From Myxococcales bacterium (GTDB lineage Bacteria; Myxococcota_A; Polyangia; Haliangiales; Haliangiaceae): DNA of 64,000 bases. The notes under the pieces were generated by a model that searched no databases, had not been told where the DNA came from, and was given only the letters and a program-made list of their open reading frames with translations. The number at the start of each line of letters is the position of its first letter. The stretch's first letter is position 1. Below, piece after piece: positions 6,829-57,009 of this stretch. Made by a program: the position numbers and the translations under genes. The DNA lies in the NCBI GenBank assembly GCA_016707895.1, contig JADJGV010000034.1, positions 501,625-565,624 of the forward strand, read 5' to 3'.

Positions 6829-10248
<3,420 letters not shown>

Positions 10249-38183: not shown

Positions 38184-39268
38184 GGCCGCGCCACGCCCAC
38201 CGCGGGCAGGCCGAGATCCTCGAGCCACCCGCGCAGCGGCGCGCCCAGGTGCCGCGGCGCCGCGCGCAGATCGGCGACCCGGCGGCTGCCGGTCAAGAGC
38301 ATCACCGCGCGCACCGACGCGATCACCCCGGCCAGGAGCTCGCCGATCGCCTCGACGCCGCCGGCGCGCTGCGCCCGCAGCACCGGCGCCGCCAGCCCGC
38401 CCAGCGCCGCGCCCAGCGCCAGCGCGCGCGCCACGTCGAGCCCGCTGCGCAGCCCGCCCGACGCGATCGTCGTGAGCCCGTGGCTGGCGCACGCCACGGT
38501 GGCCACCGCGGTCGGCACGCCCCAGTCCCACAGCTCGGTGCCGAGCGCCCGGGCCCGCGAGCCCTCGGCCGCGCGCCGCGCCTCGACCGCGACCCAGCTG
38601 GTGCCGCCGGCGCCGGCCACGTCGACGGTGGTCACGCCGACGAACTTCAGCCGCGCCGCCGCCTGCGCCGACAGCCCGCAGCCGGTCTCCTTGACGATCA
38701 CCGGCACCGGCAGCGCGTCGACCAGCCGGGCGATCGTGTCGACCGCGCCGCGGAAGTCGCGATCGCCGTCGGCCTGGATCAGCTCCTGGCCGGGGTTCAG
38801 GTGGATCGCCAGCGCGTCGGCCTCGATCTGCTTGATCAGCTCGATCACCCGCGCGGTGCCGAGCGCCTTCGCTTGCACCACGCCGAGGTTGCCGATCAGC
38901 ACGACCCCCGGCGCGACGTCCTTGACCCGGAACGTCGCCAGGAGCTCGGGGTGCTCGGCCATCGCCCGCTGCGAGCCGACGCCCATCGCGAGGCCGGCGG
39001 CGGCCGCGGCGGTCGCGACCTCGCGGTTGATGCGCGCCGCGGTCGCGGTGCCGCCGGTCATGCCGGTCACCATCACCGGCGCGGCCAGCCGGTGGCCACA
39101 CAGCTCGACGTCGAGCTCGAGCTCGTCGGCGGCCAGCTCGGGCAGCGCCTGGTGCACCAGGTGGACGTGCTCGAGCAGCGTCGTGCGCTCGGCGAAGTCG
39201 GCCTCGCCCGAGGCCGCGACCTCGAGGTGATCGGCCTTGCGCCGCGCGATCGCAGGTTCGTCGACCAT
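38180..39268 (-). CDS. fni: Type 2 isopentenyl-diphosphate delta-isomerase (FMN-dependent)
   Basis: Full-length IDI-2-like 362-aa ORF with a TIM-barrel flavoprotein pattern (VIVKETGCGLS, AGAGGTSW). Confidence 0.85.
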   Translation of the reverse strand: MVDEPAIARRKADHLEVAASGEADFAERTTLLEHVHLVHQALPELAADELELDVELCGHRLAAPVMVTGMTGGTATAARINREVATAAAAAGLAMGVGSQRAMAEHPELLATFRVKDVAPGVVLIGNLGVVQAKALGTARVIELIKQIEADALAIHLNPGQELIQADGDRDFRGAVDTIARLVDALPVPVIVKETGCGLSAQAAARLKFVGVTTVDVAGAGGTSWVAVEARRAAEGSRARALGTELWDWGVPTAVATVACASHGLTTIASGGLRSGLDVARALALGAALGGLAAPVLRAQRAGGVEAIGELLAGVIASVRAVMLLTGSRRVADLRAAPRHLGAPLRGWLEDLGLPAVGVARP

Positions 39269-39321
39269 CGCCGGTTTCTAGCACGCTGCCGCCCCGCCGG
39301 CGGCCGGGCGCCGGCCGCGCG

Positions 39322-40203
39322 TCAATACACCATCAACAGCACCAGCGCGCCGAACGCCAGGCCGTTGAGCAAGAACAGCGGGTCGCGCAGCATCGCGTCG
39401 GTGGGGCTGTCCTCGCCGGCCTTGCGCAGCGCCAGGTCGGCGAAGCGCAGGATGCCGACGGCGCCGAGCGGCGCGGTCCACACCAGGTTGCGGGTGCCGA
39501 AGAAGCGGATGGTGTGCGCGTCGAGCGTGTACGCGACGTACGCGCCGATCGTCGCCAGCGCCAGCACGATCATCGACCACTGCACCGCCGTCGGGTGGTA
39601 GCCGGCCAGCGCCGCGCGGGTGGTGCCGACGTCGCGGCCGGCCAGCTTGGCGCGGGCCAGCTCGTGGGCGCGCTTGCCCAGCCCCAGGAACATCGCCAGC
39701 AGCCCGGTGCACGCCAGCAGCCACGGCGACGGCGCGACGCCGATGGCCGCGCCGCCGGCCATGACCCGCAGGATGAACCCGGCGGCGATCAAGATGACGT
39801 CGACGAACGCCACCTGCTTGAGCTTGAAGCTGTAGGCCAGGTTCTGCGCGAGGTACACGCCGGCCCACACCCCCGCCATCGGCGCCAGCGCGAACGCGGT
39901 GCCGAGGCCGGCCAGCGCCAGCACCGCCGCGACCACCAGCGCCGCGCGCTCGCCGAGGTGCCCCGCGGCGATCGGCCGCTTGCACTTGGTCGGGTGCGCG
40001 CGATCGGCGGCCACGTCGAGCACGTCGTTGAACGCGTAGACCGCGCCGGCCAGGGCGCAGAACGCCGCCACCGCCAGCGCGGCGCGCAGCGCGTAGTGCC
40101 CGTCCGCGAGGTGCTTGGCGAACACCAGCGGCGCGGCCACGAACACGTTCTTCACCCACTGGTGTGGGCGGAGCGTCTTGAGGACTGCGCGGGCCGGGCT
40201 CAT
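39322..40203 (-). CDS. UbiA-family integral membrane prenyltransferase
   Basis: NDVLDVAADRAHPTKCKRPIAAG (NDxxDxxxD ... KxxRP) and multiple TM helices. Confidence 0.75.
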   Translation of the reverse strand: MSPARAVLKTLRPHQWVKNVFVAAPLVFAKHLADGHYALRAALAVAAFCALAGAVYAFNDVLDVAADRAHPTKCKRPIAAGHLGERAALVVAAVLALAGLGTAFALAPMAGVWAGVYLAQNLAYSFKLKQVAFVDVILIAAGFILRVMAGGAAIGVAPSPWLLACTGLLAMFLGLGKRAHELARAKLAGRDVGTTRAALAGYHPTAVQWSMIVLALATIGAYVAYTLDAHTIRFFGTRNLVWTAPLGAVGILRFADLALRKAGEDSPTDAMLRDPLFLLNGLAFGALVLLMVY

Positions 40204-40272
40204 CGGCGAGCGCGCGGTGTTAGCACGGGGCTCGACGCGATGCCGAGTTCCCGGCGCCAACCGTGCGGTGGG

Positions 40273-42150
40273 CTACGGCGCGACCGCGGCAGAACCCGTG
40301 CCCGTCCCCGAACCCGAACCCGTCGCCGTGCCCGTCCCCGATCCCGTCCCCGATCCCGATCCCGTCCCCGATCCCGTCCCCGATCCCGATCCCGTCCCCG
40401 ATCCCGATCCCGTCCCCGATCCCGTCCCCGATCCCGCGCCCACGCCGGCGTCGCCATCGTCGGCGGCCGGCGCGGCGTCCTCGGTGTCGGTGTCCTCGGT
40501 GTCGGTGTCCTCGGTGTCGGTGTCCTCGGTGTCCTCGTCCTCGTCGTCCTCGAAGTCGCCGCCGTCGTCGGCGCCGCCGTTGGCCTCGACCCAATCGGCG
40601 ATCTTCGCCGTCTCGCAGGCCTTGGCCTCATCCGGCGCCTTCTTGCGGCAGTTGGTGACGTCGGTGAACAGGCCCAGGCAGTTCTCGCGCTCGAACTCGT
40701 CCTCGATGCCCTTGCACTCGTCCTGCTTCTTGACCGTGCCGTCGGGCAGGGTGACCTCGTCGACGTTGATCACCGCCTGGGCGCTGGACTTCACCACCGC
40801 CACCAGGCCGTCGAGGGTCCCGGTGGGCTTGGGCGGCGGCACCACGGTCAGGCTCGGCACGTAGGTCACGATCAACAGCGCCGCCATCACGGTGAACATG
40901 AATGGCAAGGTCGCGACCGTGACCTCCAGCAACGGTTTTCGAAACTTGAAGCTGGAGATGAACAGGTTGAGGCCGATCGGTGGGTGCAGGTAGCCGATCT
41001 CGAGGTTGAGCAAGAAGATCACGCCGAGGTGGTACGGGCTGACGTCGTACTCGTGGGCCACGGGCGCGATCAGCGGCACGACGATCAAGATCGCCGAGAA
41101 GATGTCCATGACCATGCCGGTCAGGAGCAAGAGCCCGTTGAGCGCCAGCAGGAACGCCCACCGCGAGTCGATGTGGTCGCGGGTCCAGTGCACCAGCTTG
41201 GCGGGGACGCCCGCGGTCACCAGGTAGTTGGTCAGCGCGGTCGCCGAGTAGATGATGATGAAGATCGCGCCGATCAGCGCCATCGACTCCTTGGTGATGG
41301 CCCACAGCGCCTGGGGCTTGAGGTCGCGGAAGATGCCCATCTCGACGATGATCAGGTACAGCACCGTCAGCGACGCGATCTGCGAGATGTCGCCGACGCC
41401 CTTGGCCAGGCCCAGCAAGATCAAGATCGGCAGGAAGATCACCGGCAGCGCGCCGGGCAGCGAGGCGAACAGCTCGCCCCACTCGAACTTCTGGCGCGGC
41501 ACCTTCTTGATGATCGCGATCGCCACCACCAGCGCCGACAGCATCAGGATCAGCAGCGCGCCCGGGATGATGCCGGCGAAGTAGAAGCGCTCGGTGGCCC
41601 ACTCCCATTGCCAGTTCTCGGGCTTGGGCTGGATGCGCTGCAGGCCATAGATCGTGCCGAACAGGATGATCGGCAGGGCCGGCGGGAACAGCAGGCCGAC
41701 CGAGCCGGTGCCGGTCACCAGGCCGAGCGCGAACCGCTCGGGGTACCGCTGCTTGATCAGCGCCGGCATCAACAGGCCGCCGAGCGCGACGATCGTGACG
41801 CCCGAGGCGCCGGTGAACGTGGTGTACACCGAGCACGCCAGGATCGTGACGATGCCGAGCCCGCCCGGCACCCAGCCCAGCGCGGCGTTGGCGAAGCGCA
41901 CCAGCCGCTCGGCGGTCTTCGACGCGGCCATCACGTAGCCGGCGTAGATGAACAGCGGGATGCTCGAGAAGATCGTCGACTTGTCGCCGGTGCCGAGGCT
42001 GAAGAACTCGTAGGCGAAGCCGCCGAAGTCCTTCTCGAAGCCCTTGGTGCCGGTCTCGGCGCCGATCGCGGTCAAGAACAACATCACCGCGAACAGCGGC
42101 GAGCCGGCGACGAACGCCAGCACCAGCAGGATGATCAGGAGCGTCAGCAT
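40273..42150 (-). CDS. dctM: TRAP transporter large permease DctM with an unusual C-terminal extension of about 190 aa (Cys-rich segment, acidic TEDTD repeats, GSGTGSG repeats)
   Basis: DctM-like polytopic core followed by DECKGIEDEFERENCLGLFTDVTNCRKK...ACETAKI, then EDTDTEDTDTEDTDTED and GSGTGSGTGSGSGTGSG encoded by DNA tandem repeats. Confidence 0.8.
   Translation of the reverse strand: MLTLLIILLVLAFVAGSPLFAVMLFLTAIGAETGTKGFEKDFGGFAYEFFSLGTGDKSTIFSSIPLFIYAGYVMAASKTAERLVRFANAALGWVPGGLGIVTILACSVYTTFTGASGVTIVALGGLLMPALIKQRYPERFALGLVTGTGSVGLLFPPALPIILFGTIYGLQRIQPKPENWQWEWATERFYFAGIIPGALLILMLSALVVAIAIIKKVPRQKFEWGELFASLPGALPVIFLPILILLGLAKGVGDISQIASLTVLYLIIVEMGIFRDLKPQALWAITKESMALIGAIFIIIYSATALTNYLVTAGVPAKLVHWTRDHIDSRWAFLLALNGLLLLTGMVMDIFSAILIVVPLIAPVAHEYDVSPYHLGVIFLLNLEIGYLHPPIGLNLFISSFKFRKPLLEVTVATLPFMFTVMAALLIVTYVPSLTVVPPPKPTGTLDGLVAVVKSSAQAVINVDEVTLPDGTVKKQDECKGIEDEFERENCLGLFTDVTNCRKKAPDEAKACETAKIADWVEANGGADDGGDFEDDEDEDTEDTDTEDTDTEDTDTEDAAPAADDGDAGVGAGSGTGSGTGSGSGTGSGSGTGSGTGSGSGTGSGTGTATGSGSGTGTGSAAVAP
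40290..40560. repeat. Coding hexanucleotide and 12-bp tandem repeats (GATCCC/GTCCCC units and gtcctcggtgtcggt units) that encode the DctM tail
   Basis: Directly visible periodic DNA. GC is locally lower. Confidence 0.7.
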
Positions 42151-42151
42151 G

Positions 42152-42844
42152 TCAGCCCGCCACTTCCGGCTCGGGCGCGGTCTTGCCCTGGCGCAGGTAG
42201 TCGATCTCGATGACGATGTGCAGGGTGACGTGGAACATGATCAGCACGGCGCACACCGGGATCAGCCAGCCCACGGTCGTGGTCGGGATGACCTCGTAGT
42301 GCTGCTTCTCCTTGGTCAAGGCGTGCTGGATGAGCCGACCGCCGTGGAACAAGAGCGCGCCGGCCAGCAGCGCGGCGACGTTGGTGAACACCCGCACCAG
42401 CGCCTTCACCTTGGTGGGGAACAGCGCCGAGACCAGGTCGAGGCCAAAGTTGCGCCGGCTCTGGGTGGCGTAGGCGGCGCCGAGCATGCCGATCGAGAAC
42501 GCCGACAGGCGCACGATCTCGATCGCCCACAGCGGCCGTTCGCTGGCGAACATGTCGATGAACGTGCGGTACAAGCTGACCAGGACCAGCACGGCGAACG
42601 CGCCGAACAGCCCGGCGCGCTCGCCCGCGCCGACCGCCTCGTCGATCCGGCGCACCGCGCGCGCCAGCGGTGGCTCATCGGCGAAGTGATCGACCACGTG
42701 GGGCTCCGGGAACGCGACGGCCACGGCTACGCCCATCCCCGTCGCGGCAGGTGGTTCGGTCTTGAGGTGGACCTCGCCATCGGCCTTGGGGTCGGGCAGG
42801 TCGGGCGATGGCTTGACGGGTGGGTCATCACCGGATGCGCTCAC
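42152..42844 (-). CDS. dctQ: TRAP transporter small permease DctQ with an N-terminal extension
   Basis: Four-TM DctQ-like core. The stop abuts the dctM start. Confidence 0.7.
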   Translation of the reverse strand: MSASGDDPPVKPSPDLPDPKADGEVHLKTEPPAATGMGVAVAVAFPEPHVVDHFADEPPLARAVRRIDEAVGAGERAGLFGAFAVLVLVSLYRTFIDMFASERPLWAIEIVRLSAFSIGMLGAAYATQSRRNFGLDLVSALFPTKVKALVRVFTNVAALLAGALLFHGGRLIQHALTKEKQHYEVIPTTTVGWLIPVCAVLIMFHVTLHIVIEIDYLRQGKTAPEPEVAG

Positions 42845-42975
42845 ACCAGCATCTTACGCAGGATCCGGAACCTGCCTCAACCGATGCCGCCACCAAGTGC
42901 TCGTCCCGTCGGCCGCGTCGCGGCAGCCACCACGGTCGACTCGAGTGGAGGCGGCGTCTCGGCTACCCTCGCGCC

Positions 42976-43152
42976 ATGCCGATCTGCCGCGAGTGCAAGG
43001 ACGAAGTCGATCGCCTGGTCTCGGTCAAGGTCGCCGGCAAGGCCGTCAAGCTGTGCGCCGACTGCGCCGACCGCGCCCGCGAGGGCGCCGAGATCGCCGA
43101 GGCGAGCGAATCGGTGATCCAGGGCATGATGGGCTTCAAGGGCCGCCGCTAG
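42976..43152 (+). CDS. Small zinc-ribbon protein (about 58 aa, CxxC...CxxC)
   Basis: MPICRECKDEVDRLVSVKVAGKAVKLCADCADRAREG. Confidence 0.45.
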   Translation: MPICRECKDEVDRLVSVKVAGKAVKLCADCADRAREGAEIAEASESVIQGMMGFKGRR

Positions 43153-43285
43153 CCACCAAGCGCGCGAGCACCGCCGCGCTACCTCCGAAACGCAACCGCC
43201 CCGCACGAGGCGGGGCGGTTGTTCCCTCAGACGGCCCCGCGCTGAACGCTCCGGGCCGTTTCGGGTGGGGGCCCCGGCGCATGCC

Positions 43286-43313
43286 GGGGGAGGGTCTTAC
43301 GAAAGACCCTCTC
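43286..43313. terminator. Hairpin (GAGGGTCTT-acga-AAGACCCTC) between convergent genes, a putative bidirectional terminator
   Basis: A 9-bp perfect stem lies between the end of the zinc-ribbon ORF (plus strand) and the end of dctP (minus strand). There is no U-tract, as is common in high-GC genomes. Confidence 0.4.
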
Positions 43314-43317
43314 TAGG

Positions 43318-44340
43318 TCACGGCGCGGGGTTCTTCGCGCGGTACTCGTCGCGGTACTTCAGCACCATCTCGAGCTCGGCCTTCGAGTAGACCTTGCCGG
43401 TCAGATCGGCCCAGACGTCCTTGGCCGCCTTGTCGAAGTCGGCCAGGAGCTCCGGCGTGGTCGCGCTGATCTTCACGCCCTTGCGCTCCATCTGCTTCTT
43501 GGCGCTCTCGTTGTCCTTGCGGATCTGCTTGCGGAGCGTCTTCTGCATGCCCTTGGAGATCTTGAGCACCAGCTTCTGGTCCTCGGCCGTCACCTTCTTG
43601 TAGGCGTCCAGCTTGATGACCGTGGCGGCGATGCCGTAGCTCATCGGCATCGAGGTCATGTACTTGACCTTGGTGTTCCACTGCAGCGCCACGGCGGCCA
43701 AGGGCGACCCGTAGCACGCGTCGATGCGGCCGGTGGTCAGGTTGGGCTCGACCTCGGGCACGCCCAGCGGCACGCCCGAGATGCCGAGCCGCTTGTACAT
43801 GGCGCGGACGATCGCGTCGTCGCCCCACATCCACACCTTCGAGCTCTTGAGGTTGCCGACGCTGGTGATCTCGGACTTCGAGAGCAGGTAGATCCAGCCG
43901 ACGTCGCCGCGATCGCCGAGCTTGTAGCCCTTGGCCTCGAACTTCTTGACGAAGTACGGCCACATCTTGTCGGCGACGTAGTCGAGCTCCTCGACCGTCG
44001 CGAACATGCGCGGCAGCTCGAGCACGCGGATCGACTCTTCGACCATCGACAGGCCGACCGAGGTCACGGCGGCGCCGTCGAGCTGGCCGAGGTTGATCTT
44101 GCGGACGACGTCGCGCTCGTCGCCCTGGACGCCGCCGGCGTAGTACTTGACCTTGACCCGGCCCTCGGTCTTCTTGTCGATCTCGGCGGCGCCCTTGCCG
44201 AGGATCTTCATCCACGAGCTGCCGTCGGGCGCCAGGGTGGCCAGGCGGATCTCGACGTTGTCGGCCGCCGCCGGGGCGATCGCCGCGAGGGAAGCCGCGA
44301 CGGCGGTCGCGAGGGTGAGACGGTTGACAAGGCTGCGCAT
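43318..44340 (-). CDS. dctP: TRAP transporter solute-binding protein DctP
   Basis: Signal peptide MRSLVNRLTLATAVAASLAAIAPAAA and a DctP-family fold pattern. Confidence 0.8.
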   Translation of the reverse strand: MRSLVNRLTLATAVAASLAAIAPAAADNVEIRLATLAPDGSSWMKILGKGAAEIDKKTEGRVKVKYYAGGVQGDERDVVRKINLGQLDGAAVTSVGLSMVEESIRVLELPRMFATVEELDYVADKMWPYFVKKFEAKGYKLGDRGDVGWIYLLSKSEITSVGNLKSSKVWMWGDDAIVRAMYKRLGISGVPLGVPEVEPNLTTGRIDACYGSPLAAVALQWNTKVKYMTSMPMSYGIAATVIKLDAYKKVTAEDQKLVLKISKGMQKTLRKQIRKDNESAKKQMERKGVKISATTPELLADFDKAAKDVWADLTGKVYSKAELEMVLKYRDEYRAKNPAP

Positions 44341-45272
44341 CAGAAGAGCTCCTTTTCCTGGCTGAGGTACCGGCGGGCGCGCCGGTGGGCGATCTCGTTG
44401 GCGAGGCGCTGCTCCGGCCAGATCGCCGGATCGGTCTGCAGCACCTTGACCAGTTCGTCGTGGAACAGCGTGCGGTTCTGGGTCATGACGCCGACCCGCT
44501 TGGCGTAATTCACGCGGGCGAGCAGGAACTTGTCGTCGGTCAGCGCGAGGGCCTTCTTGAAGTGCTCCTCGGCCTTGGCCGCGTCGCCGCCCAGCTGGGC
44601 GCCGGCCGCGGTGTAGAGCAGGCCCAGCGCGACGTGGGGCAGGGCCGCCAGCGCCTTGTCCTTGGGCGGGTGCTTGTCGTCCATCTCGACGACCTTGAGC
44701 AGCATCGCCTTCGCGGTCGGCGCCTGCGCCACCAGCTCGACGTTGTCCTTGTTGTGGTTGATCATCGAGCCGAGGCCGATCGCCGCCCACATCAACGGGG
44801 TGCGCTGGCCGCTCGACGCGCCGTTGATCAGCTTGGTCACCGACTCGGTGTCGCCGAACAGGCCGTCCTGCCACTTCTTACCGAGCTGCATCAGCGCGTA
44901 GTTCATGCAGCGCACGAACATCCGGGTCGCGCGGTTGTCGAGCTCCTGCGCCGCGTCGTAGTCGTTGGCGATCAGCGCGCGCTCCCACTCGTCCTCGACG
45001 AAGCCGATGCCGTACTGGCAGTAGCCCTCGGCGAGGATGCCGCGCAGGATCGGGTTGCCGGGATCGACCACCCAGAAGCCCTCGACGGTCTTGAGCGTGC
45101 CGGGGATGGCGCGCGCCGCCAGCTCGTAGTCGGACTCCATCTTGATCGACGGCTGGGCGCGGATCAGCACCTTCGCCGTGGTGTTGACGGTGAACTGGCC
45201 CATGTCGCACGCGGCGAGCACGAGCGTCGCCACGGCGGCGACGGCGAGAGCGAGGCGAGAGGTTCGGATCAT
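44340..45272 (-). CDS. TatT-family TPR lipoprotein (TRAP-T-associated component)
   Basis: Lipobox LVLAACDMG and TatT-like helical repeat sequence, located directly upstream of dctP-dctQ-dctM. Confidence 0.65.
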   Translation of the reverse strand: MIRTSRLALAVAAVATLVLAACDMGQFTVNTTAKVLIRAQPSIKMESDYELAARAIPGTLKTVEGFWVVDPGNPILRGILAEGYCQYGIGFVEDEWERALIANDYDAAQELDNRATRMFVRCMNYALMQLGKKWQDGLFGDTESVTKLINGASSGQRTPLMWAAIGLGSMINHNKDNVELVAQAPTAKAMLLKVVEMDDKHPPKDKALAALPHVALGLLYTAAGAQLGGDAAKAEEHFKKALALTDDKFLLARVNYAKRVGVMTQNRTLFHDELVKVLQTDPAIWPEQRLANEIAHRRARRYLSQEKELF

Positions 45273-45427
45273 GCGCGAGGTCCTGTGAGAGACGAGGGTT
45301 CGGCGTAGGGCATTCACGGCGGTGGCGGGATGAACCCGTCCGCTACCCCGGACGCGAAGGCTAAGTGAGCGAAAGGCGAGAGTCAATCACGGCGACGCGG
45401 TGGGCGACCGGGTACACTGGGCCGGTG

Positions 45428-47035
45428 ACGCGCGCCTGGCTGGTCCTCGCCTGCGCCCTGGCCCTGGCGGCGGTCGGCTGCGACGCGTCGTGGCTGGGCG
45501 CCGCGCCGTCCGACCGCGGGCCGGGCGGGCTCAAGGCGGGCACGATCGTCGTGGCCCGCCCCGCCGACGCCAGCTCGCTCGACCCGGCGCGCCCCAGCGA
45601 CAACGAGTCGTCGGAGGTGATCTCGCAGCTCTACGACACGCTGGTGCGCTACCGCCCGGGCACCACCGAGATCGAGCCGGGCCTGGCGGTGGCGTGGGAG
45701 GTCGATCCCGCCGGGCGCTCGTGGACGTTCCGGCTGCGGCCGGGCGTGCGGTTCCACGACGGCACCGCGCTCGACGCGGCGGCCGTGGTGTTCAGCTTCG
45801 AGCGCCAGCGCGATCCCCAGCACCCGTACCACCGCGGCAAGTTCGCGTACTGGGAGAACGCGTTCAAGAACATCGAGCGGGTCGAGGCGATCGCGCCGAT
45901 GATCGTGCGGATCACGATCAGCGATCGCTTCGCCCCGTTCCTGGCGGCGATGGCGACCTTCCCGGTGTCGATCGTGTCGCCGGCCGCGGTGGCCCGGTCC
46001 GGCGACGACTTCGGCGATCACCCGGTCGGGACCGGCGCGTACCGGCTGGAGCGCTGGACCCGCGGCGAGCGGATCGTCATCGTGCGCAACCCCGACTACT
46101 GGGGGCCGCGGCCGGCGATCGAGCGGGTGGTGTTCGAGGTCGTCCCCGACGCCCGGCAGCGGCTCATCGCGCTCGAGAGCGGCGCGGTCGACCTGGCGCT
46201 GGCGATCCTGCCCGCCGAGTCGCAGTTCCTCGATCTGCACCCAGGCCTGACGCTGCACCGGCCGCCGGCCAACAACGTCACCTACCTGGCGATGAACTGC
46301 GCGCAGCCCCCGTTCGATCAGCCGGCGGTGCGGCAGGCGCTGGCCCTGGCGATCAACAGGCAGGCGATCGTCCGGCTGGCGTACCAGGGCCTGGCCACCG
46401 TCGCCGACGGCCCCCTGCCGCCGTCGCAGTGGGGGTACCGACCGGGGCTGGGCGCGGTGGGCTTCGATCCGGATGCGGCGCGGGCCCGGCTCGAGCGGCT
46501 GGCCGCCGAGGGCGAGATCGACCTGGGCCACACCTACAAGCTGTACGCACCGACGACGCCGCGGCCGTACCTGCCCAACCCCGAGCAGGTCGCGCGGATC
46601 ATCCGCGCCAACCTCGAGGAGGTCGGCCTGCACGTCGAGCTGGTGCTGCAGCCGTTCGCGGCGACGCGGCAAGACACCCAGGCCGGGCGCCACGACCTGG
46701 CGCTGGCCGGCTGGGTCGGCGACAACGGCGACCCCGACAACTACCTGTACCTGATGTTCGACAAGGACAACACGGTGCCCGGCATCGCCCGCAACATCGC
46801 GTTCTACCGCGACGACGCGGTGTCGACGCTGCTGCGCCGGGCCCAGCGGGTCGAGGACCGCGGCGAGCGCGAGCGGCTGTACGCCGAGGCCCAGACCCGG
46901 ATCGCGGCCGACGCGCCGTGGGTGCCGCTGGCCCACTCGCAGGTGACCGTGGCCGCGCGCGAGGACATCACCGGCGTGGTGGTCGATCCCACCGGCCACG
47001 TCGTGTACGCCGGGCTCAAGCGGGTCAAGCGGTGA
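45428..47035 (+). CDS. Family-5 (peptide/nickel type) solute-binding lipoprotein, an orphan with no adjacent ABC permease or ATPase
   Basis: Lipobox LALAAVGCD and an SBP_bac_5-like sequence. The stop overlaps the GTG start of the histidine kinase. The ORF opens at 45365; the start was taken at 45428. Confidence 0.75.
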   Translation, partial: TRAWLVLACALALAAVGCDASWLGAAPSDRGPGGLKAGTIVVARPADASSLDPARPSDNESSEVISQLYDTLVRYRPGTTEIEPGLAVAWEVDPAGRSWTFRLRPGVRFHDGTALDAAAVVFSFERQRDPQHPYHRGKFAYWENAFKNIERVEAIAPMIVRITISDRFAPFLAAMATFPVSIVSPAAVARSGDDFGDHPVGTGAYRLERWTRGERIVIVRNPDYWGPRPAIERVVFEVVPDARQRLIALESGAVDLALAILPAESQFLDLHPGLTLHRPPANNVTYLAMNCAQPPFDQPAVRQALALAINRQAIVRLAYQGLATVADGPLPPSQWGYRPGLGAVGFDPDAARARLERLAAEGEIDLGHTYKLYAPTTPRPYLPNPEQVARIIRANLEEVGLHVELVLQPFAATRQDTQAGRHDLALAGWVGDNGDPDNYLYLMFDKDNTVPGIARNIAFYRDDAVSTLLRRAQRVEDRGERERLYAEAQTRIAADAPWVPLAHSQVTVAAREDITGVVVDPTGHVVYAGLKRVKR

Positions 47036-49818
47036 GCCGGCCGGGGCGGTGGCTGCGCGGGCTCGGCGCCGGCCTGGCCTGGCCGGCGCGGCGCATCGCG
47101 CGGGCGCGCCTGCGCACCAAGCTGGCGCTGGCGCTGACCGTCGCGGCGCTGCTGCCGATGCTGGTGGTGGCGTCCTTGGCCTCGGGCGTCGTGCTCGGCA
47201 GCCTCGATCGCGGCCTGCAGTCCGACGTGCAGCGCCAGCTCGACGTCGGGCTCAACCTGACCCTGCGCGCGGTCGAGCGGCTGGGCGAGGACGCCGTGCG
47301 GCTGGCCGCCAACCCCGAGCTGGCCGACTCGGTGCCGCGCGGCGCCGCCGCGATCCACGAGGTGGTGGCGCAGCGGGCGGCGTACCTGCCGTCGGCGCTG
47401 GTCCAGGTGCTGTCGCGCGACGGCCTGCCGCTCACCAGCGAGGTCATCGGCGGCGACGAGGCCCGGTTCTCGGAGCTGGCGGTCGACGGCAGCTCGGCGA
47501 CGGTGGCGTCGGCGCGCGACTGGGCCCGGCGGGTGCAGCTCGAGCTGTCGCCCAAGGGCGTCGTGGTGCGGGCCTCGGCGCCGGTGCTCGACCGCCAGCT
47601 GTCGCTGGTCGGCGTGGTCGTGATCTCGGTGCCGCTCGACGGCGCGTTCGCCGACGGCATCAAGGGCGCGCTCGGCGTCGACGTGCTGATCGGCAGCCTC
47701 AACGCCGGCGTGGCCACCTCGACGGTGCGCGACGCCGACGGCCGGCGGCTGTCGGCGCTGCAGGTGCCGACCCGGGTGCTGGCCCAGGTGCGCGAGCGCC
47801 GCCACCCGGTCGTGACCCAGGCCATCGCCGGCCGCGAGCACGCGGTGGCGTGGACCGCGCTCGAGGACGATCGCGGGCGCGCGGTCGGGCTGTTCGCGGT
47901 GGCGATCGATCGGCGGTCGCTGTCGCAGGCGCAGCGGGTGGCGTTCCGCTCGCTGGCCATCGGCGCGGCGGTGGCGGTGGCGTTCGCGTTCGTGCTGGCG
48001 GCGGCGCTGACCCGGCGCGTGGGCCGGCCGATCGCGACCCTGCACCGCGGCGCGATCGCGATCGCGCGCGGCGAGCTCGATCAGGTGATCGACGTGCCGG
48101 CCGGCGACGAGATCGGCGACCTGGCCAAGGCCTTCACCCACATGACCGCGGCGCTCAAGGAGAACCAGCAGCGCCTGGCGGCGCGCATGCGCGAGATGGT
48201 GGCGATCCAGGACGCCGGCCGGGCGATGTCGTCGGTGATCGAGTTCGACCAGGTGTCGGCCAAGATCGTCGACGCGGTGGCCCGGGTGTTCGACGTGCGG
48301 CTGTGCGCGCTGTTCGCGGTGGCCGGCGGCGGCCGCGACGAGCCGCGGGTGACGGTGGCGGCGGCCCGGGTGCGCAAGGCCGAGCTGGCCAGCGCGCTGA
48401 TCGGGGTCGACCCCGCCGACGCCGCGCCGCTGGCGCCGATCGCCGCGCAGGTGGCCCGGCTGCGCGCGACGTTGCGCGTCGACGACGTGATCGCCGATCC
48501 CCGGCGCAAGGACGCGGCGCTGGCGGCCGGCGTCGACGGCTCGCTGCTGGCCATGCCGCTCGAGCGCAAGGGCGCGGTGGTGGGCGTGCTGGTGCTCGGC
48601 CGCACCCAGCGCAGCCGGACCTTCCTCGAGGCCGACGCCAACCTGCTGGCGACCTTCGCCGACCAGGCGGCGGCGGCGGTCGAGAACGCCCGGCTGTACG
48701 CGCAGGTCCGCGACGCCAGCGAGGAGCTCGAGGCCAAGGTGCGGCTGCGCACCGCCGAGCTGACGGCGATCAACGCCGAGCTGGGCCGCGCGCTGTCCGA
48801 GCTGCGCGACACCCAGGCCCAGCTGGTGCTGTCGGAGCGGATGGCCGGCCTCGGCCTCCTGGTGGCCGGCGTGGCCCACGAGATCAACTCGCCGTCGGCG
48901 GCGATCCGCGGCGCGGTCGAAGGGATGACCGCGGCGATCGGCCGGCTGGCGGTGCCCATGCACGAGCTGGCGGCGGCGGTGCCGACCGCGGCGGCCTTGT
49001 TCGCCACCGTCGAAGCGCACGCGCGCCGGCTGGCCGGCGAGCGCATGCCGACCGGCGCGGCGGTGCGGCGGGCCGCCAAGGAGCTGCGGGCCCGGCTGGT
49101 CGAGCTGGGCGCCGGGGCGGCGCCCGAGCTGGGCACCCGCCTGGCCGAGGCCGGGGCCGAGCTGGCCACCGTCGACGCGCTGGTGGCGGCGGTCCCGCCC
49201 GGCGCGGCCGGCGCGGTCCTGACCTACCTGGTCGAGCTGGCCGAGGTCCACCGGGCGTCGCTGCTGATCGCCAACGCGATCGTGCGCATCCAGCGCATCG
49301 TAGGTGCGCTCAAGACCTACTCGCACCTCGACCAGGAGCCGACCCGGGTCGCCGCCGACGTCCACGAGGGGATCGAGACCACGCTCACCCTCATGGGGTA
49401 CGCGCTGCGTGATATAACGGTGGTGAGGCGGTTCGCCGAGTTGCCCGCGGTGCCGATCTTTGTCGATGAGCTCAATCAGGTTTGGACGAACCTGATCCAG
49501 AACGCTGTCCAGGCGTGCGCGGGGAGAGGCACGATCACGATCGAGACCGTGGCCGCGGCGGCCACCGCCGCTGACCCCGCTGGGGTGGTGGTGCGGATCG
49601 TCGATGACGGGCCCGGCGTGCCGCCCGAGATCCTGCCGCGGATCTTCGAGCCGTTCTTCACCACCAAGCCCAAGGGCGAGGGCACCGGGCTGGGGCTGGG
49701 CATCGTCGCGCAGATCGTCGTCAAGCACGGCGGTCGGGTGGCGTGCGACTCGGTGCCCGGGCGCACCGCGTTCGAGGTGTGGCTGCCGACCGTGCGCCGC
49801 GGAGGCGCGACCGCGTGA
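47031..49818 (+). CDS. Sensor histidine kinase with periplasmic sensor, HAMP, GAF, HisKA and HATPase_c
   Basis: HAMP GDEIGDLAKAFTHMTAALKEN. GAF region. H-box GVAHEINSPSAAIRGAVEG. N/G boxes NLIQNAVQA and GTGLGLGIV. Confidence 0.85.
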
Positions 49819-50879
49819 GCCTGCGCGAGACCATCCTGTGCGTCGACGACGAGGAGGGCGTGCTCCACGCGCTGCGCCAGCAGCTCGCGGCCCGCTTCGG
49901 CCACGAGTGCGACATCGCGACCGCGTCGTCGGGCGCCGACGCGCTCGAGCTGCTCGACGAGCTGGAGCGCGACGGCGAGAAGATCGCGGTGGTGATCGCC
50001 GATCAGATCATGCCGGGCATGAAGGGCGTCGACCTGCTCGAGCTGGTCGATCGCCGCAGCCCGTCGACCACCAAGATCCTGCTGACCGGGCAGGCCGGCC
50101 TCGACGCGGTGGTCAGCGCGATCAACCGCGCCAACCTCAACCACTACCTGTCCAAGCCGTGGGACGAGGCGTCCTTGCGGCTGGCCGTCGAGAACCTGCT
50201 GCGGCAGTACCGCCTGACCGCCGAGAACCGCGAGCTGATCGCGACCTTGTCGGCCAAGAACCAGGCGCTGCTCGAGATGAACCGCGAGCTCGAGGCCAGG
50301 ATCCACGAGCGCACCCACGAGCTGGCCGAGGCCAACGCCCGGCTGGCGCAGCTGGCGGTCACCGACGGCTTGACCGGGCTGTACAACCACCGCCACTTCC
50401 ACGAGCGGCTGGCGCTCGAGGTCGAGCGCTCGGCGCGCAACGGCCTGCCGCTGTCGTTGTTGATGATCGACGTCGATCACTTCAAGCACTACAACGACCA
50501 CCACGGCCACCCGTCGGGCGACGAGGTGCTGCGGCAGATCGCCCGGCTGCTCGCCGAGGGCCGGCGCGCCAACGACCTGGTCGCGCGCTACGGCGGCGAG
50601 GAGTTCGGCGTGGTGCTGGTCGACACCGCCAAGTTCACCGCCGCCAAGCTGGCCGAGCGGGTGCGCGAGCGGGTGGTCGGGTTCGGCTTCGCCCACAAGG
50701 AGGCGCAGCCGCTGGGCCGGGTCACGATCTCGATCGGCGTGGCGTCGTTCCCCGACGACGCCGGCGACGCGATGGCGCTGGTGCGGTCGGCCGACGACGC
50801 GCTGTACGCGGCCAAGCGCGCCGGCCGCGATCGGGTGGTGCTCGCCACCGCCAACCCCGGCGAGCCAGCCAGCGGCTGA
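49815..50879 (+). CDS. Response regulator diguanylate cyclase (REC-GGDEF, PleD-like)
   Basis: REC ILCVDDEEGV...IADQIMPGMKG. GGDEF RYGGEEFGVVL. The GTG overlaps the kinase stop. Confidence 0.85.
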   Translation: MSLRETILCVDDEEGVLHALRQQLAARFGHECDIATASSGADALELLDELERDGEKIAVVIADQIMPGMKGVDLLELVDRRSPSTTKILLTGQAGLDAVVSAINRANLNHYLSKPWDEASLRLAVENLLRQYRLTAENRELIATLSAKNQALLEMNRELEARIHERTHELAEANARLAQLAVTDGLTGLYNHRHFHERLALEVERSARNGLPLSLLMIDVDHFKHYNDHHGHPSGDEVLRQIARLLAEGRRANDLVARYGGEEFGVVLVDTAKFTAAKLAERVRERVVGFGFAHKEAQPLGRVTISIGVASFPDDAGDAMALVRSADDALYAAKRAGRDRVVLATANPGEPASG

Positions 50880-50944: not shown

Positions 50945-51973
50945 ATGACCACCGCCCCCGCGCGCTCGCCCAAGGACGTCGCCGTGATCGGCGCCGGCAG
51001 CTACGGCACCTGCCTGGCCATCCTCGCCGCGTCGGCGGGGCACCGGGTCCACTTCTGGTGCCGCGGCGAGGCGGCCGCCGCCGAGCTGCAGGCGACCCGC
51101 GAGAACAAGCTCTACCTGCCGGGGTTCCGGCTGCCCGACGGCGTGACCGTCACCGCCGACCTCGAGGCCGCGGTGCGCGGCAAGCAGATCGTCGTCGGGG
51201 TGACGCCGTCGCACGCGATCCGCGACGTGCTCGGCCGGGCGGCGGCGTGGCTCGATCCCGACGTGGTGGTGGTCAACGCGTCCAAGGGGCTCGAGGACGG
51301 CACGCTGCAGACCATCGAGCAGGTCTACGCCGACATCTTCCCGGCGCGGATCGCGGGGCGCGCGACCTACCTGTCGGGGCCGACCTTCGCCGCCGAGATC
51401 GCCGGCGGCATGCCGTCGGCGATCGTGCTGGCCGGCCACGACCCCGAGACCACCGCGATGGTGCAGCGCGCGCTGTCGACCGATCGCTTCCGCACCTACT
51501 CGACCGACGACGTCACCGGCGTGCTGGTCGGCGGCGCGATCAAGAACGTCGTCGCGATCGCCGCCGGCGTGTCCGACGGCCTCGGCTTCGGCTCCAACGC
51601 CCGCGCGGCGCTGATCACCCGCGGCCTGGCCGAGATCACCCGCATCGGCGTGGCGATGGGCGCCGACCCGGTGACCTTCGCCGGCCTGTCGGGCATGGGC
51701 GATCTGGTGCTGACCTGCTCGAGCGACACCTCGCGCAACCGCAAGGTCGGCCTGGCGCTGGGCCGCGGCCAGGCGATGGCCGACATCCTCGCCGACATGC
51801 GCATGGTCGCCGAGGGCGTGAAGACGACGAAGGTGGCGTGGGACCTGGCGCGCAAGCTGGGCGTGCCGGCGCCGATCACCGAGGTGATGCACGCGATCGT
51901 CCACGAGGGCGCGCCGGCCCGCGAGACGATGCAGCGCCTGATGGCGCGCTCGCTGCGCAGCGAGAAGGACTGA
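50945..51973 (+). CDS. gpsA: NAD(P)H-dependent glycerol-3-phosphate dehydrogenase
   Basis: VAVIGAGSYGTCLAILAA Rossmann fold and a GpsA-like sequence throughout. Confidence 0.9.
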   Translation: MTTAPARSPKDVAVIGAGSYGTCLAILAASAGHRVHFWCRGEAAAAELQATRENKLYLPGFRLPDGVTVTADLEAAVRGKQIVVGVTPSHAIRDVLGRAAAWLDPDVVVVNASKGLEDGTLQTIEQVYADIFPARIAGRATYLSGPTFAAEIAGGMPSAIVLAGHDPETTAMVQRALSTDRFRTYSTDDVTGVLVGGAIKNVVAIAAGVSDGLGFGSNARAALITRGLAEITRIGVAMGADPVTFAGLSGMGDLVLTCSSDTSRNRKVGLALGRGQAMADILADMRMVAEGVKTTKVAWDLARKLGVPAPITEVMHAIVHEGAPARETMQRLMARSLRSEKD

Positions 51974-52887: not shown

Positions 52888-54630
<1,743 letters not shown>

Positions 54631-55671: not shown

Positions 55672-57009
55672 ATGGGACGCGCGACCGCGCTGGCGGTGAT
55701 CGCACTGGGCGTCGGGGCCGCGCCGGCCGCGGCGAGCCCGGTCGAGCTGTTCGGCTTCGGCAGCCGCCACGGCGCCCACGCCGGCGCCGGCGTCGCCGAC
55801 GTCGACGACATGGCCGCGACCTGGATGAACCCGGCCGGGCTGGCCGCCGGTCGCAAGACGCTGACCACCGGCATGCTCGGCTGGGTGTCGAACCTGCGCG
55901 TCGGCGAGCGCCGCAGCCCGATGGCGCAGACCGGCGGCGGGCTGTTCGGCGTGACCTTGCCGGCGCCGCTGGGCGGGCCGCTGGCCGGGCGGCTGGGGCT
56001 GGGGCTCGGCATGTTCGTGCTGCCGACGTCGATCGTGCGCATCACCGCGCGCCTGCCCGACGAGCCGTTCTTCCCCTACTACCAGGGCCGCGCCGAGCGG
56101 CTGGTGCTGGTGCCCGGCGTCGGCGTGCGGGTCACCGACGCGCTCGACGTCGGCGTCGCCGCCAACTTCCTGGCCGGGCTGGGCGGCGGCATCGAGGCCG
56201 GCGAGGGCGCGACCCGCGCGCTCGAGGCCCGCGTCGACGAGGTGGTGCCGGCGGTGGCGCGGCTGGTGGCCGGCGCGCGCTGGCGGGTGCGGCCCGACCT
56301 GGCGATCGCCGCGGTCTACCGGCAGCGCTTCGAGGTGCCGTTCACCACCGTCGCGCGCACCGAGGTCGCGGGCGAGCCGATCAACCTCGACCTGGCCGCC
56401 AGCGGGCAGTTCGCGCCGCACACCGCGGTGCTCGGCGCGACCTGGAAGCCGCCGGGCGGCGCGCTGCACCTCGATCTGGCCTACGCGCGGTGGTCGAGCT
56501 ACCCGGGGCCGTTCGTCAAGGTCGGCAGCGAGCTGCCGCTGGTCGGCCCGCTCGCCGCCGAGCTGCCGGCGGTGCCGTGGCGCGACACCGTCGCGGTGCG
56601 GCTGGGCGGCGACGTCGCGATCGGCGAGCGCGTGCTGGGCCGCGCCGGCTACGCGTTCGAGACCTCGCCGGTGCCGGCGGCGCAGCCCGGCGTCACCAAC
56701 CTGCTCGACGGACCGCGCCACACCGTGGCGCTCGGCGCGGCGATCACCTGGCCGGCGGCGCTGGCCGGCAAGCCGGTGACCCTGGCGCTGCACGCGCAGG
56801 CGCAGCTGGTCGGCGGGCGCACGCTGACCAAGGCGATCCTGCCGGCCGGCGCGGCCGGCGGCACCTTCGACGGCCTGCGCGACGAGGTCACCGACGATCC
56901 GCAGGACCCGGCGACCCAGGGCGCGCAGATCTCCAACCCCGGCTACCCGCGGCTCGACAGCGGCGGCCAGGTGTTCTCGGGCGGCGCGACGTTGGAGGTG
57001 GGGCTGTGA
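55672..57009 (+). CDS. Outer-membrane beta-barrel transport protein, FadL/OmpP1/TodX-like, paralog 1
   Basis: Signal peptide and a C-terminal aromatic terminus. Alternating beta-strand pattern. Confidence 0.6.
   Translation: MGRATALAVIALGVGAAPAAASPVELFGFGSRHGAHAGAGVADVDDMAATWMNPAGLAAGRKTLTTGMLGWVSNLRVGERRSPMAQTGGGLFGVTLPAPLGGPLAGRLGLGLGMFVLPTSIVRITARLPDEPFFPYYQGRAERLVLVPGVGVRVTDALDVGVAANFLAGLGGGIEAGEGATRALEARVDEVVPAVARLVAGARWRVRPDLAIAAVYRQRFEVPFTTVARTEVAGEPINLDLAASGQFAPHTAVLGATWKPPGGALHLDLAYARWSSYPGPFVKVGSELPLVGPLAAELPAVPWRDTVAVRLGGDVAIGERVLGRAGYAFETSPVPAAQPGVTNLLDGPRHTVALGAAITWPAALAGKPVTLALHAQAQLVGGRTLTKAILPAGAAGGTFDGLRDEVTDDPQDPATQGAQISNPGYPRLDSGGQVFSGGATLEVGL

What the first reader, a model, noticed from the sequence alone, without database searches (positions are those of the whole stretch)
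45428..50879. Orphan family-5 solute-binding protein coupled to a GAF histidine kinase and a REC-GGDEF cyclase
The SBP_bac_5 lipoprotein has no ABC permease or ATPase nearby, and its stop overlaps the kinase start. The kinase stop overlaps the start of a PleD-like diguanylate cyclase. This arrangement predicts that the solute-binding protein acts as a periplasmic co-sensor docking on the kinase, with output being c-di-GMP synthesis (ligand to c-di-GMP).
Basis: inference. Interest (0 to 1): 0.5.

Follow-up and report, generated by a model that had tools for sequence, protein, structure and literature searches.

The report
Peptide-binding protein feeding a c-di-GMP switch
A transporter-less, DppA-like binding protein is encoded together with a membrane kinase and a c-di-GMP-making enzyme, and related genomes (one of which fuses the binding protein to the same sensor domain) suggest the three form one signalling chain; this is a well-supported new example of a known design, not a new principle.

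Summary
Both junctions overlap by 4 bp. No ABC permease or ATPase occurs anywhere in the 64 kb.

- **Binding protein:** it is DppA/AibA-like and keeps the two DppA residues that clamp a peptide's termini.
- **Kinase:** its periplasmic part is a dCache-like double-PAS fold, the fold of LuxQ and other SBP-docking receptors.
- **Cyclase:** it is WspR-like (single REC), not PleD-like.

The co-sensor reading is supported by comparison, not experiment. The kinase's rare sensor domain has only 130 representatives among 1.84 billion proteins. In 7 of 9 contexts outside the core clade it sits next to a family-5 SBP. This holds whether the output is a kinase, a directly fused GGDEF or a Ser/Thr kinase. 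In one Ser/Thr kinase family the sensor domain and the SBP are fused in one polypeptide.

Direct binding, the ligand and the sign of regulation are untested. Two relatives lack an adjacent SBP.

Verdict: a new member of the known SBP-dependent receptor class, of moderate interest.

The parts
45318..45424 (.). Intergenic region of 107 bp between the divergent TAtT (TRAP-T) gene and the SBP gene. It presumably holds the cassette promoter.
   Evidence: No sigma-70-like site was found and there is no Rfam match.
45425..47035 (+). DppA/AibA-like family-5 solute-binding lipoprotein, 536 aa. The signal peptide and lipobox Cys19 lie at 45479-45481. Ligand-clamp residues are R380 (46562-46564) and D433 (46721-46723).
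   Evidence: Pfam SBP_bac_5 scores 2.4e-95. Nearest solved structures are H. pylori AibA/DppA 6ofq (3e-85) and E. coli DppA (about 1e-78). R380 and D433 align with DppA R355 and D408 and are invariant in 26 clade members.
47032..49818 (+). Sensor histidine kinase, 928 aa. Its start overlaps the SBP stop by 4 bp.
   Evidence: Pfam finds HAMP, GAF and HATPase_c, plus weak sCache_3_3 and HisKA matches. The GC3 frame supports the call.
47188..47943 (+). Periplasmic dCache-like (double PAS/Cache) sensor domain of the kinase, residues about 53-304. It is flanked by TM1 (47116-47187) and TM2 (47944-48015). This is the proposed docking site for the SBP.
   Evidence: The AF2 model has pLDDT above 90 over this part. 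Foldseek matches dCache ligand-binding domains, DctB, KinD and LuxQ (2hje, TMt 0.66). The domain family has only 130 representatives in 1.84e9 proteins.
48007..48687 (+). Cytoplasmic HAMP (48007-48159) and GAF (48244-48687) modules of the kinase.
   Evidence: Pfam HAMP 1.1e-12 and GAF_2 2.4e-13.
48853..49791 (+). Transmitter region. It holds the H-box helix with H616 (48877-48879), a roughly 130-aa insertion inside the DHp, and HATPase_c (49465-49791).
   Evidence: HEINSP motif. HisKA matches only profile positions 3-29 of 66. HATPase_c scores 1.5e-24.
49815..50879 (+). WspR-like response-regulator diguanylate cyclase, 354 aa. REC spans 49833-50189 (D11/D12, phospho-acceptor D63 at 50001-50003, T91, K114). 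A coiled coil follows, then GGDEF at 50355-50834 with GGEEF at 50592-50606 and the I-site RAND at 50565-50576.
   Evidence: Pfam Response_reg 2.3e-18 and GGDEF 3.4e-48. There is a full-length match to WspR 3bre at 3e-49. Motifs were read from the translation.
50945..51973 (+). gpsA (NAD(P)-dependent glycerol-3-phosphate dehydrogenase), 66 bp downstream. It may be the last gene of the operon.
   Evidence: Pfam. It follows the cyclase in L166-L168, L171 and L172. In L171 and L172 it overlaps the cyclase stop by 4 bp.
40273..45317 (-). Divergent TPAT-type TRAP transporter operon: TAtT 44340-45317, DctP 43318-44340, DctQ 42152-42736, DctM 40273-42150. This is conserved context, not an ABC system and not a partner for a family-5 SBP.
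   Evidence: Pfam. The block is conserved in L166-L168 but absent in L171 and L174, which still keep the SBP-kinase-cyclase cassette.

Best explanation
The three genes form one operon that encodes a three-protein relay.

1. The membrane-tethered, DppA-like lipoprotein binds a small ligand with a free amino group and a carboxylate. A di- or short peptide is most likely.
2. It contacts the dCache-like periplasmic domain of the kinase, either on ligand binding or as a pre-formed complex that changes shape.
3. The signal passes through TM2, HAMP and GAF to the transmitter, which autophosphorylates H616.
4. The phosphoryl group goes to D63 of the WspR-like REC-GGDEF protein. This controls its oligomerisation and c-di-GMP synthesis. 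Product feedback acts through the RAND I-site.

**Shown here:** the gene structure, domain content, catalytic motifs, absence of a transporter, and the repeated association (including a fusion) of this sensor domain with family-5 SBPs.

**Inferred:** physical docking, the nature of the ligand, the phosphotransfer partner, and the sign of regulation.
For: **Operon structure.** There are 4-bp start/stop overlaps at both junctions in the window. Junctions are equally tight in relatives.

**No transporter.** No Dpp-type transporter occurs in the 64 kb.

**Origin of the SBP.** All SBP relatives at least 50% identical that have room downstream carry the homologous kinase, and the cyclase where the contig is long enough. 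The nearest SBPs outside the clade (35-44% identity) sit with DppB-type permeases or ABC ATPases. The signalling SBP therefore derives from a transport SBP.

**Sensor fold.** The kinase periplasmic domain is dCache-like, as in known SBP-docking receptors.

**Independent contexts.**
- SAR324 L016: SBP followed by a kinase with the same sensor domain but PAS in place of GAF, and unrelated neighbours.
- L171 and L174: the cassette survives with sensor identity down to 26-32% and with changed flanks.
- L172: SBP followed by sensor-HAMP-GGDEF in one protein.
- P0157 and P0186 loci: a Ser/Thr kinase carrying the sensor domain, followed by an SBP5 gene.
- P0198/L169: Ser/Thr kinase, TM, sensor domain and SBP5 fused in a 1095-aa protein. 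Three full-length sequence variants were seen on at least four contigs.

**Ligand pocket.** The Asp that salt-bridges a dipeptide's N-terminus in DppA (D408; PMC3295651) is D433 here. The Arg aligned with DppA R355 (C-terminal carboxylate contact, from my own knowledge of the 1DPP structure) is R380. Both are invariant in 26 clade members and kept in the fused protein.

**Cyclase competence.** DD/D63/T91/K114, GGEEF and RxxD are all present. The cyclase is 60-82% identical across loci whose GpsA is 49-78% identical, which indicates strong constraint.
Against: - No binding or activity data exist.
- dCache domains usually bind small ligands directly, so the fold does not require an SBP.
- Two sensor-domain relatives have no SBP within 4 kb: L170 (kinase plus cyclase) and L173.
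- Within the core clade a much larger block is syntenic (mevalonate genes, UbiA, TRAP, cassette, gpsA). Adjacency there may be partly plain vertical inheritance.
- A distance-correlation (mirror-tree) test on 5 complete loci was uninformative.
- Experimental precedent shows that adjacent sbp and kinase genes can be unlinked (PMC11113362).
- The SBP scores far below the NCBIfam DppA equivalog cut-off (256 vs 1005 bits). Relatives of this scaffold bind glutathione, haem, nickel or AI-2, so the ligand could be something else.
Confidence: 0.7

Rival explanations
1. Dual-use SBP. The lipoprotein delivers peptides to a Dpp/Opp-type ABC importer encoded elsewhere in the genome, as E. coli MppA uses OppBCDF. 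It also signals to the kinase, as DppA does with Tap or CBP with ChiS.
For: The SBP is DppA-like with an intact peptide clamp. Its nearest relatives outside the clade are transporter-linked. Dual use is the rule for chemoreceptor-coupled SBPs (PMC8050422).
Against: No transporter lies near the gene in any of more than 15 cassette loci. The review notes that kinase-coupled SBPs are typically encoded with signalling genes. In the fused P0198 form the SBP is covalently tied to a receptor and can hardly shuttle to a permease.
Confidence: 0.15
2. Independent functions. The kinase senses its own small ligand directly through the dCache-like domain. The SBP is co-transcribed but serves only transport or scavenging.
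For: dCache domains commonly bind ligands directly (Foldseek hits to PctA, Mlp37, DctB and KinD with bound ligands). L170 and L173 lack an adjacent SBP. PMC11113362 describes adjacent but non-interacting pairs.
Against: The sensor domain and SBP5 are associated across three output classes and several lineages, including a covalent fusion. There are 4-bp overlaps. No transporter is present.
Confidence: 0.1
3. Chance adjacency or annotation artefact. The ORFs are spurious or unrelated neighbours in a 75% GC genome that is rich in long open frames.
For: Many overlapping spurious ORFs exist in this region.
Against: GC3 is 0.97-0.99 in exactly these frames. Pfam matches are strong. The same three genes are called on independent assemblies and are conserved down to 26% sensor identity.
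Confidence: 0.01

Closest known systems
LuxP-LuxQ (Vibrio AI-2 receptor)
   Same: A dedicated SBP without a transporter is encoded directly upstream of, and overlapping, a membrane kinase. The kinase's periplasmic domain is a tandem-PAS (dCache-like) fold, and the SBP docks onto it. Foldseek matches LuxQ 2hje/3c38 (PMC8050422).
   Different: LuxP is a Peripla_BP_4 protein that binds AI-2. LuxQ is a hybrid kinase feeding a phosphorelay to sRNAs. Here the SBP is family 5 and DppA-like, the kinase has HAMP-GAF, and the output is a diguanylate cyclase.
CBP-ChiS (Vibrio cholerae chitin sensor)
   Same: This is the only characterised family-5 SBP that controls a sensor kinase with a dCache-like periplasmic domain (PMC8050422).
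   Different: CBP is encoded with its ABC transporter and binds chitin oligosaccharides. ChiS is a DNA-binding hybrid kinase. Here there is no transporter, the pocket is a peptide-type clamp, and the output is c-di-GMP.
NspS-MbaA and ScrB-ScrC (Vibrio)
   Same: An orphan SBP encoded upstream of a membrane protein with a dCache-like periplasmic domain, so that the ligand sets the c-di-GMP level (PMC8050422). The L172 variant (SBP followed by sensor-HAMP-GGDEF) has exactly this two-protein layout.
   Different: In those systems the receptor is itself the GGDEF-EAL enzyme, and the SBPs belong to families 8 and 3. The window inserts a kinase to response-regulator phosphotransfer step and uses a family-5 SBP.
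E. coli DppA-Tap and H. pylori AibA(DppA)-TlpB
   Same: These are the closest solved relatives of the SBP (1dpp about 1e-78; 6ofq 3e-85). Both are known to double as co-sensors for chemoreceptors (PMC8050422). The peptide-terminus clamp residues are conserved.
   Different: They are encoded with DppBCDF transporters and signal to chemoreceptors. The window protein is only about 35-40% identical and scores far below the DppA equivalog cut-off. It is a lipoprotein and is paired with a kinase.
WspR (Pseudomonas) and DmxB (Myxococcus xanthus) REC-GGDEF cyclases
   Same: Single REC, helical linker, GGDEF with an I-site. There is a full-length match to WspR 3bre. DmxB has the same architecture in a myxobacterium (PMC4877007).
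   Different: WspR is fed by a chemosensory CheA-type pathway. DmxB has no known kinase and sits in a different neighbourhood. Here the cognate kinase is encoded immediately upstream.
BvgS-type kinases with fused periplasmic SBP (Venus-flytrap) domains
   Same: The fused relative P0198 (kinase, TM, sensor, SBP5) shows the same idea of an SBP domain built into a receptor.
   Different: BvgS uses SBP_bac_3 domains directly upstream of the TM of a histidine kinase. P0198 is a Ser/Thr kinase with a dCache-like domain between the TM and a C-terminal family-5 SBP.

Membership tests
SBP-dependent sensor kinase systems (LuxPQ / TorTS / CBP-ChiS type) | The SBP gene is linked to the signalling gene rather than to a transporter. 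| tested here: met
   There is a 4-bp overlap with the kinase gene. No ABC component occurs in 64 kb. The same holds in relatives.
SBP-dependent sensor kinase systems (LuxPQ / TorTS / CBP-ChiS type) | The kinase has an extracytoplasmic ligand-binding domain between two TM helices, of a fold known to dock SBPs. | tested here: met
   The AF2 model (pLDDT above 90 in the periplasmic part) shows a stalk helix plus two PAS-like modules. Foldseek matches dCache ligand-binding domains, including LuxQ.
SBP-dependent sensor kinase systems (LuxPQ / TorTS / CBP-ChiS type) | Direct physical binding of the SBP to the kinase's sensor domain. | not testable with these tools
   Only indirect support is available: a covalent fusion of homologous domains in P0198/L169, and repeated adjacency.
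SBP-dependent sensor kinase systems (LuxPQ / TorTS / CBP-ChiS type) | Ligand-dependent change of kinase activity through the SBP. | not testable with these tools
   This needs biochemistry or genetics.
DppA-type dipeptide-binding proteins | SBP_bac_5 fold, with closest similarity to DppA. | tested here: met
   Pfam 2.4e-95. PDB 6ofq, 1dpp and 8z1y are the top hits. The best NCBIfam model is DppA_dipep.
DppA-type dipeptide-binding proteins | An Asp (DppA D408) and an Arg (DppA R355) that clamp the peptide's N- and C-termini. | tested here: met
   D433 and R380 align with them and are invariant in the clade. The role of D408 is taken from PMC3295651. The role of R355 is from my own knowledge.
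DppA-type dipeptide-binding proteins | Equivalog-level similarity (NCBIfam NF043070 cut-off). | tested here: not met
   256.5 bits against a cut-off of 1005. It is DppA-like but not a DppA orthologue.
DppA-type dipeptide-binding proteins | Encoded with DppBCDF permease and ATPase genes. | tested here: not met
   None are in the window. The rest of the genome was not searchable.
PleD family response regulators | REC-REC-GGDEF architecture and the NCBIfam PleD cut-off. | tested here: not met
   There is one REC only. PleD structures match only residues 176-345. NF007135 scores 208 against a cut-off of 474.
WspR-like REC-GGDEF diguanylate cyclases | Single REC with phospho-acceptor Asp, helical linker, catalytic GG(D/E)EF and RxxD I-site. 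| tested here: met
   D63, T91, K114, GGEEF 260-264 and RAND 251-254 are read from the translation. The full-length match to WspR 3bre is 3e-49.
Pfam dCache_3 / sCache_3_3 sensor domains | A match above the Pfam gathering score. | tested here: inconclusive
   The window kinase scores sCache_3_3 26.1 bits against a cut-off of 28.8. 31 to 37 of 64 family members match dCache_3 or sCache_3_3 at E<=1e-4. The fold agrees.
HisKA-type histidine kinases | H-box, DHp and HATPase_c. | tested here: met
   HATPase_c 1.5e-24 and the H-box HEINSP. The HisKA profile matches only its first helix, because of a roughly 130-aa insertion.

The most novel reading that the evidence does not exclude
The DppA-like SBP plus this rare dCache_3-like domain may form a portable two-part peptide sensor. 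Myxococcota-like predators and SAR324 would plug it onto different transmitters: a histidine kinase feeding REC-GGDEF, a directly fused GGDEF, or a Ser/Thr kinase (sometimes as a covalent fusion). Extracellular peptides from proteolysis or prey would then set c-di-GMP levels and Ser/Thr phosphorylation. This would be the first defined peptide to c-di-GMP nutrient sensor. The conserved, sometimes translationally coupled gpsA hints at a link to membrane-lipid synthesis.
Probability: 0.3. Interest if true: 0.55.

Novelty: new member of a known kind. Interest (0 to 1): 0.4.

Why it matters
SBP-mediated receptor activation is thought to be widespread, but few systems are characterised (PMC8050422). 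Adjacency alone is known to mislead (PMC11113362). This locus offers a candidate with stronger than usual genomic support:

- a fusion of the two partners in a related protein;
- reuse of the same two-part input on three kinds of output;
- a plausible ligand class.

It gives a concrete, testable route from extracellular peptides to c-di-GMP in uncultured Kofleriaceae-like Myxococcota. In related myxobacteria, c-di-GMP governs motility, exopolysaccharide and development. The finding does not reveal a new signalling principle.

Tried and rejected
- **Word-index searches for the sensor domain.** Two searches with the kinase N-terminus or periplasmic domain returned only 10 and 4 proteins. Ala-rich words swamped the candidate list. 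The exhaustive HMMER search was needed instead.
- **Mirror-tree test.** I compared distance correlations between the SBP and the sensor domain with controls. Only 5 complete loci were available. The partial correlations (0.56-0.73) did not separate the pairs, so the test is uninformative.
- **NJ tree of 159 SBPs.** The SAR324 SBP falls in the same broad subgroup as the cassette clade. Permease-linked SBPs are interspersed and there is no support measure. I do not claim a single origin.
- **Promoter, terminator, inverted-repeat and Rfam scans.** Nothing useful appeared around the cassette.
- **Lipoprotein sorting.** Asp at +2 is common in the clade. The myxobacterial sorting rule differs from that of E. 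coli, so I draw no conclusion on localisation.
- **Complex modelling.** An SBP-sensor interface could not be evaluated, and I ran no further search on it.
- **ORF start at 45365.** I considered and rejected it. The upstream 20 codons have low GC3 and rare codons, and they would bury the signal peptide.
- **The TRAP transporter as the SBP's partner.** I considered and rejected it. It has its own DctP SBP, and it is absent in L171 and L174, which keep the cassette.
Full report
**Source and setting.** The window is about 75% G+C. The same genes occur on a metagenome-assembled genome (GCA_943370995.1, contig CALRTH020000009.1) and on several metagenome contigs. Named relatives of its proteins come from Kofleriaceae and Myxococcales MAGs. 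In DNA this GC-rich, long spurious ORFs are common. I therefore called genes from third-position GC content and checked them with Pfam.

**The observation.** Three consecutive + strand genes are real.

- *SBP.* The SBP_bac_5 protein (Pfam 2.4e-95) lies in the ORF 45365-47035. That start gives MTRAWLVLACALALAAVGC, a signal peptide with a lipobox cysteine. The 20 codons upstream have low GC3 and rare codons. The Cys is kept in nearly all clade members.
- *Kinase.* The kinase starts at the GTG at 47032, inside the SBP stop (GTGA), and ends at 49818. Its order is TM1, a roughly 250-residue periplasmic domain, TM2, HAMP, GAF, an H-box (HEINSP, H616) and HATPase_c.
- *Cyclase.* The cyclase starts at 49815, again with a 4-bp overlap, and ends at 50879. 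It has one receiver domain with all the usual residues (D11/D12, D63, T91, K114), a coiled coil, and a GGDEF domain with GGEEF and an RxxD I-site. It matches WspR over its whole length (3bre, 3e-49). It matches PleD only over the GGDEF domain and fails the NCBIfam PleD cut-off. It is therefore WspR-like, not PleD-like.

**No transporter.** No ABC signature occurs in any coding frame of the 64 kb. tblastn with Dpp-type permeases and ATPases taken from related loci finds nothing at E<=1e-2. The operon is bounded on both sides. Upstream lies a divergent TRAP-T operon (TAtT, DctP, DctQ, DctM). Downstream lies gpsA, then a convergent TPR gene.

**What the SBP is.** Its closest solved relatives are H. 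pylori AibA/DppA (6ofq, 3e-85), E. coli DppA (about 1e-78) and the glutathione/haem-binding GbpA/HbpA group. In the alignment to E. coli DppA, D433 matches D408. That residue salt-bridges the N-terminus of the bound dipeptide (PMC3295651). R380 matches R355, the carboxylate contact in the DppA structure (my own knowledge). Both are invariant in 26 clade members spanning 53-91% identity. The protein is not a DppA orthologue (256 bits against an equivalog cut-off of 1005). A di- or short peptide, or another small zwitterion, is the best guess for the ligand, and no more than that.

**What the kinase's sensor is.** An AlphaFold2 model of residues 1-383 has a mean pLDDT of 82.7, and above 90 across the periplasmic part. 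It shows a long stalk helix followed by two PAS-like modules. Foldseek matches dCache ligand-binding domains of chemoreceptors and kinases, including LuxQ (2hje, TM 0.66 over the target). According to the Matilla-Ortega-Krell review, most receptors known to be driven by SBPs (LuxQ, HptS, ChiS, MbaA, ScrC, BasT, CosT) have dCache-like domains. The review also notes that SBPs which stimulate kinases are typically encoded with signalling genes (PMC8050422). The fold fits, but dCache domains also bind ligands directly, so the fold alone decides nothing.

**Conservation within the clade.** The SBP has more than 120 cluster representatives at 52% identity or more. Every relative at least 50% identical with room downstream carries the homologous kinase, and the cyclase where the contig is long enough. 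These are L006, L007, L087, L088, L090, L098, L166-L168, L171 and L174. Junctions are tight or overlapping, and no ABC ATPase lies nearby. SBPs at 35-44% identity sit with ABC ATPases or DppB-type permeases. The signalling SBP therefore descends from a transport SBP.

One caution applies. In the core clade a much longer block is syntenic: mevalonate genes, UbiA, TRAP-T, the cassette and gpsA. Adjacency there could partly be plain inheritance.

**Independent evidence.** An exhaustive HMMER search with the periplasmic domain found only 130 representatives in 1.84 billion proteins. Most are HAMP-GAF kinases. A few carry GGDEF, Ser/Thr kinase or MCP outputs. I looked at the genomic context of nine members outside the core clade.

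| Locus or protein | Arrangement | SBP5 linked? |
|---|---|---|
| SAR324 L016 | SBP, then kinase with PAS in place of GAF; unrelated neighbours | yes |
| L171 | SBP, kinase, cyclase; 26% sensor identity; TRAP genes gone | yes |
| L174 | SBP, kinase without GAF, cyclase, then hrcA | yes |
| L172 | SBP, then a single sensor-HAMP-GGDEF protein whose GGDEF is 59% identical to the window cyclase | yes |
| P0157 locus | Ser/Thr kinase with sensor domain, then SBP5 gene with a 4-bp overlap | yes |
| P0186 locus | Ser/Thr kinase with sensor domain, then SBP5 gene 45 bp downstream | yes |
| P0198/L169 | Ser/Thr kinase, TM, sensor domain and SBP5 fused in one 1095-aa protein | yes (fused) |
| L170 | Kinase and cyclase only; no SBP within 4 kb | no |
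| L173 | Sensor-HAMP-Ser/Thr kinase; no SBP within 4 kb | no |

In P0198 the SBP part is 44% identical to the window SBP and keeps both clamp residues. Three full-length sequence variants were seen on at least four contigs, so it is not a one-off frameshift. Its domain order (sensor before SBP) cannot arise by read-through of the window's gene order.

A fusion of homologues of two adjacent gene products is classic evidence that they act together. So is reuse of the pair across three transmitter types. The L172 fusion likewise supports the wiring from the sensor to the cyclase.

**Mechanism proposed.**
1. Ligand-bound SBP, tethered to the membrane by its lipid anchor and a roughly 20-residue linker, engages the kinase's dCache-like domain.
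2. The signal crosses via TM2 and HAMP, and is possibly modulated by the GAF domain.
3. H616 is phosphorylated and the phosphoryl group passes to D63 of the cyclase.
4. The active cyclase makes c-di-GMP and is product-inhibited at RAND.

Steps 1 to 3 are inferred. The sign of regulation is unknown. In P0198 only about 12 residues separate the last sensor strand from the first SBP strand. This places the SBP near the membrane-proximal end of the sensor, where a lipid-anchored SBP would also sit. That point is my inference only.

**Rivals.**
- The SBP may also feed an ABC importer encoded elsewhere, as MppA, DppA-Tap and CBP-ChiS do. I cannot search the rest of the genome.
- The kinase may sense a ligand directly, and the SBP may be functionally separate. 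A Krell-lab study found adjacent but non-interacting pairs (PMC11113362), and L170 and L173 show the sensor domain can exist without a neighbouring SBP. The fusion and the repeated association argue against this as the general case.
- Artefact is excluded.

**Comparison and novelty.** The system works like LuxPQ, CBP-ChiS and NspS-MbaA. It differs in combining three things:
- a dedicated, transporter-less DppA-type SBP;
- a kinase to response-regulator step;
- a cyclase as the only visible output.

It also belongs to a small family in which the same two-part input is reused on other transmitters. I found no paper describing this family. That search covers open-access literature only. I rate it a new member of a known kind, with moderate interest (0.4).

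Noticed in passing
window 50945-51973 (+); L171 7737-8735; L172 1935-2942: gpsA follows the cyclase gene in the window and in L166-L168, L171 and L172. In L171 and L172 its start overlaps the GGDEF gene's stop by 4 bp. It may therefore belong to the same operon. The reason for linking a phospholipid-precursor enzyme to this signalling cassette is unexplained.
   Followed up: partly
window 36271-45317 (- strand): A conserved divergent block lies upstream. It holds a TPAT-type TRAP transporter (TAtT 44340-45317, DctP 43318-44340, DctQ 42152-42736, DctM 40273-42150), a UbiA prenyltransferase (39322-40260) and mevalonate-pathway genes (FMN_dh/IDI-2-like 38180-39268, GHMP kinase 37260-38228, diphosphomevalonate decarboxylase 36271-37314). 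The same order occurs in L166-L168, down to 53% SBP identity.
   Followed up: partly
window 48853-49464 (+), kinase residues about 608-811: The kinase has a roughly 130-residue, apparently helical insertion between the H-box helix and the second DHp helix. Pfam HisKA matches only profile positions 3-29 of 66. The insertion is shared by relatives P0124, P0126 and P0130. Its function is unknown.
   Followed up: no
L169 1536-4823 (protein P0198); contexts of P0157 and P0186: Ser/Thr protein kinases carry the same dCache_3-like extracellular domain. They are either fused to a C-terminal family-5 SBP (P0198) or followed by an SBP5 gene (P0157, P0186). This is an undescribed SBP-coupled Ser/Thr kinase architecture.
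   Followed up: partly
window 52888-54630 (+), 55672-58286 (+): A Ser/Thr kinase with a C-terminal PEGA domain lies downstream, followed by two tandem FadL/TodX-like outer-membrane protein genes. There is no evident link to the cassette.
   Followed up: no
L007 7249-8323: The kinase sensor region of this MAG matches in two different reading frames (7249-7821 and 7850-8323). This probably reflects a frameshift or assembly error in that record.
   Followed up: no
L132 2-9375: A more distant family-5 SBP (33% identity) lies between a large PAS-rich hybrid histidine kinase and four ORFs. The first two of these have the length of Dpp-type permeases. The last two carry the ABC ATPase signature. This is a CBP-ChiS-like layout. 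The four ORFs were not checked with Pfam.
   Followed up: no
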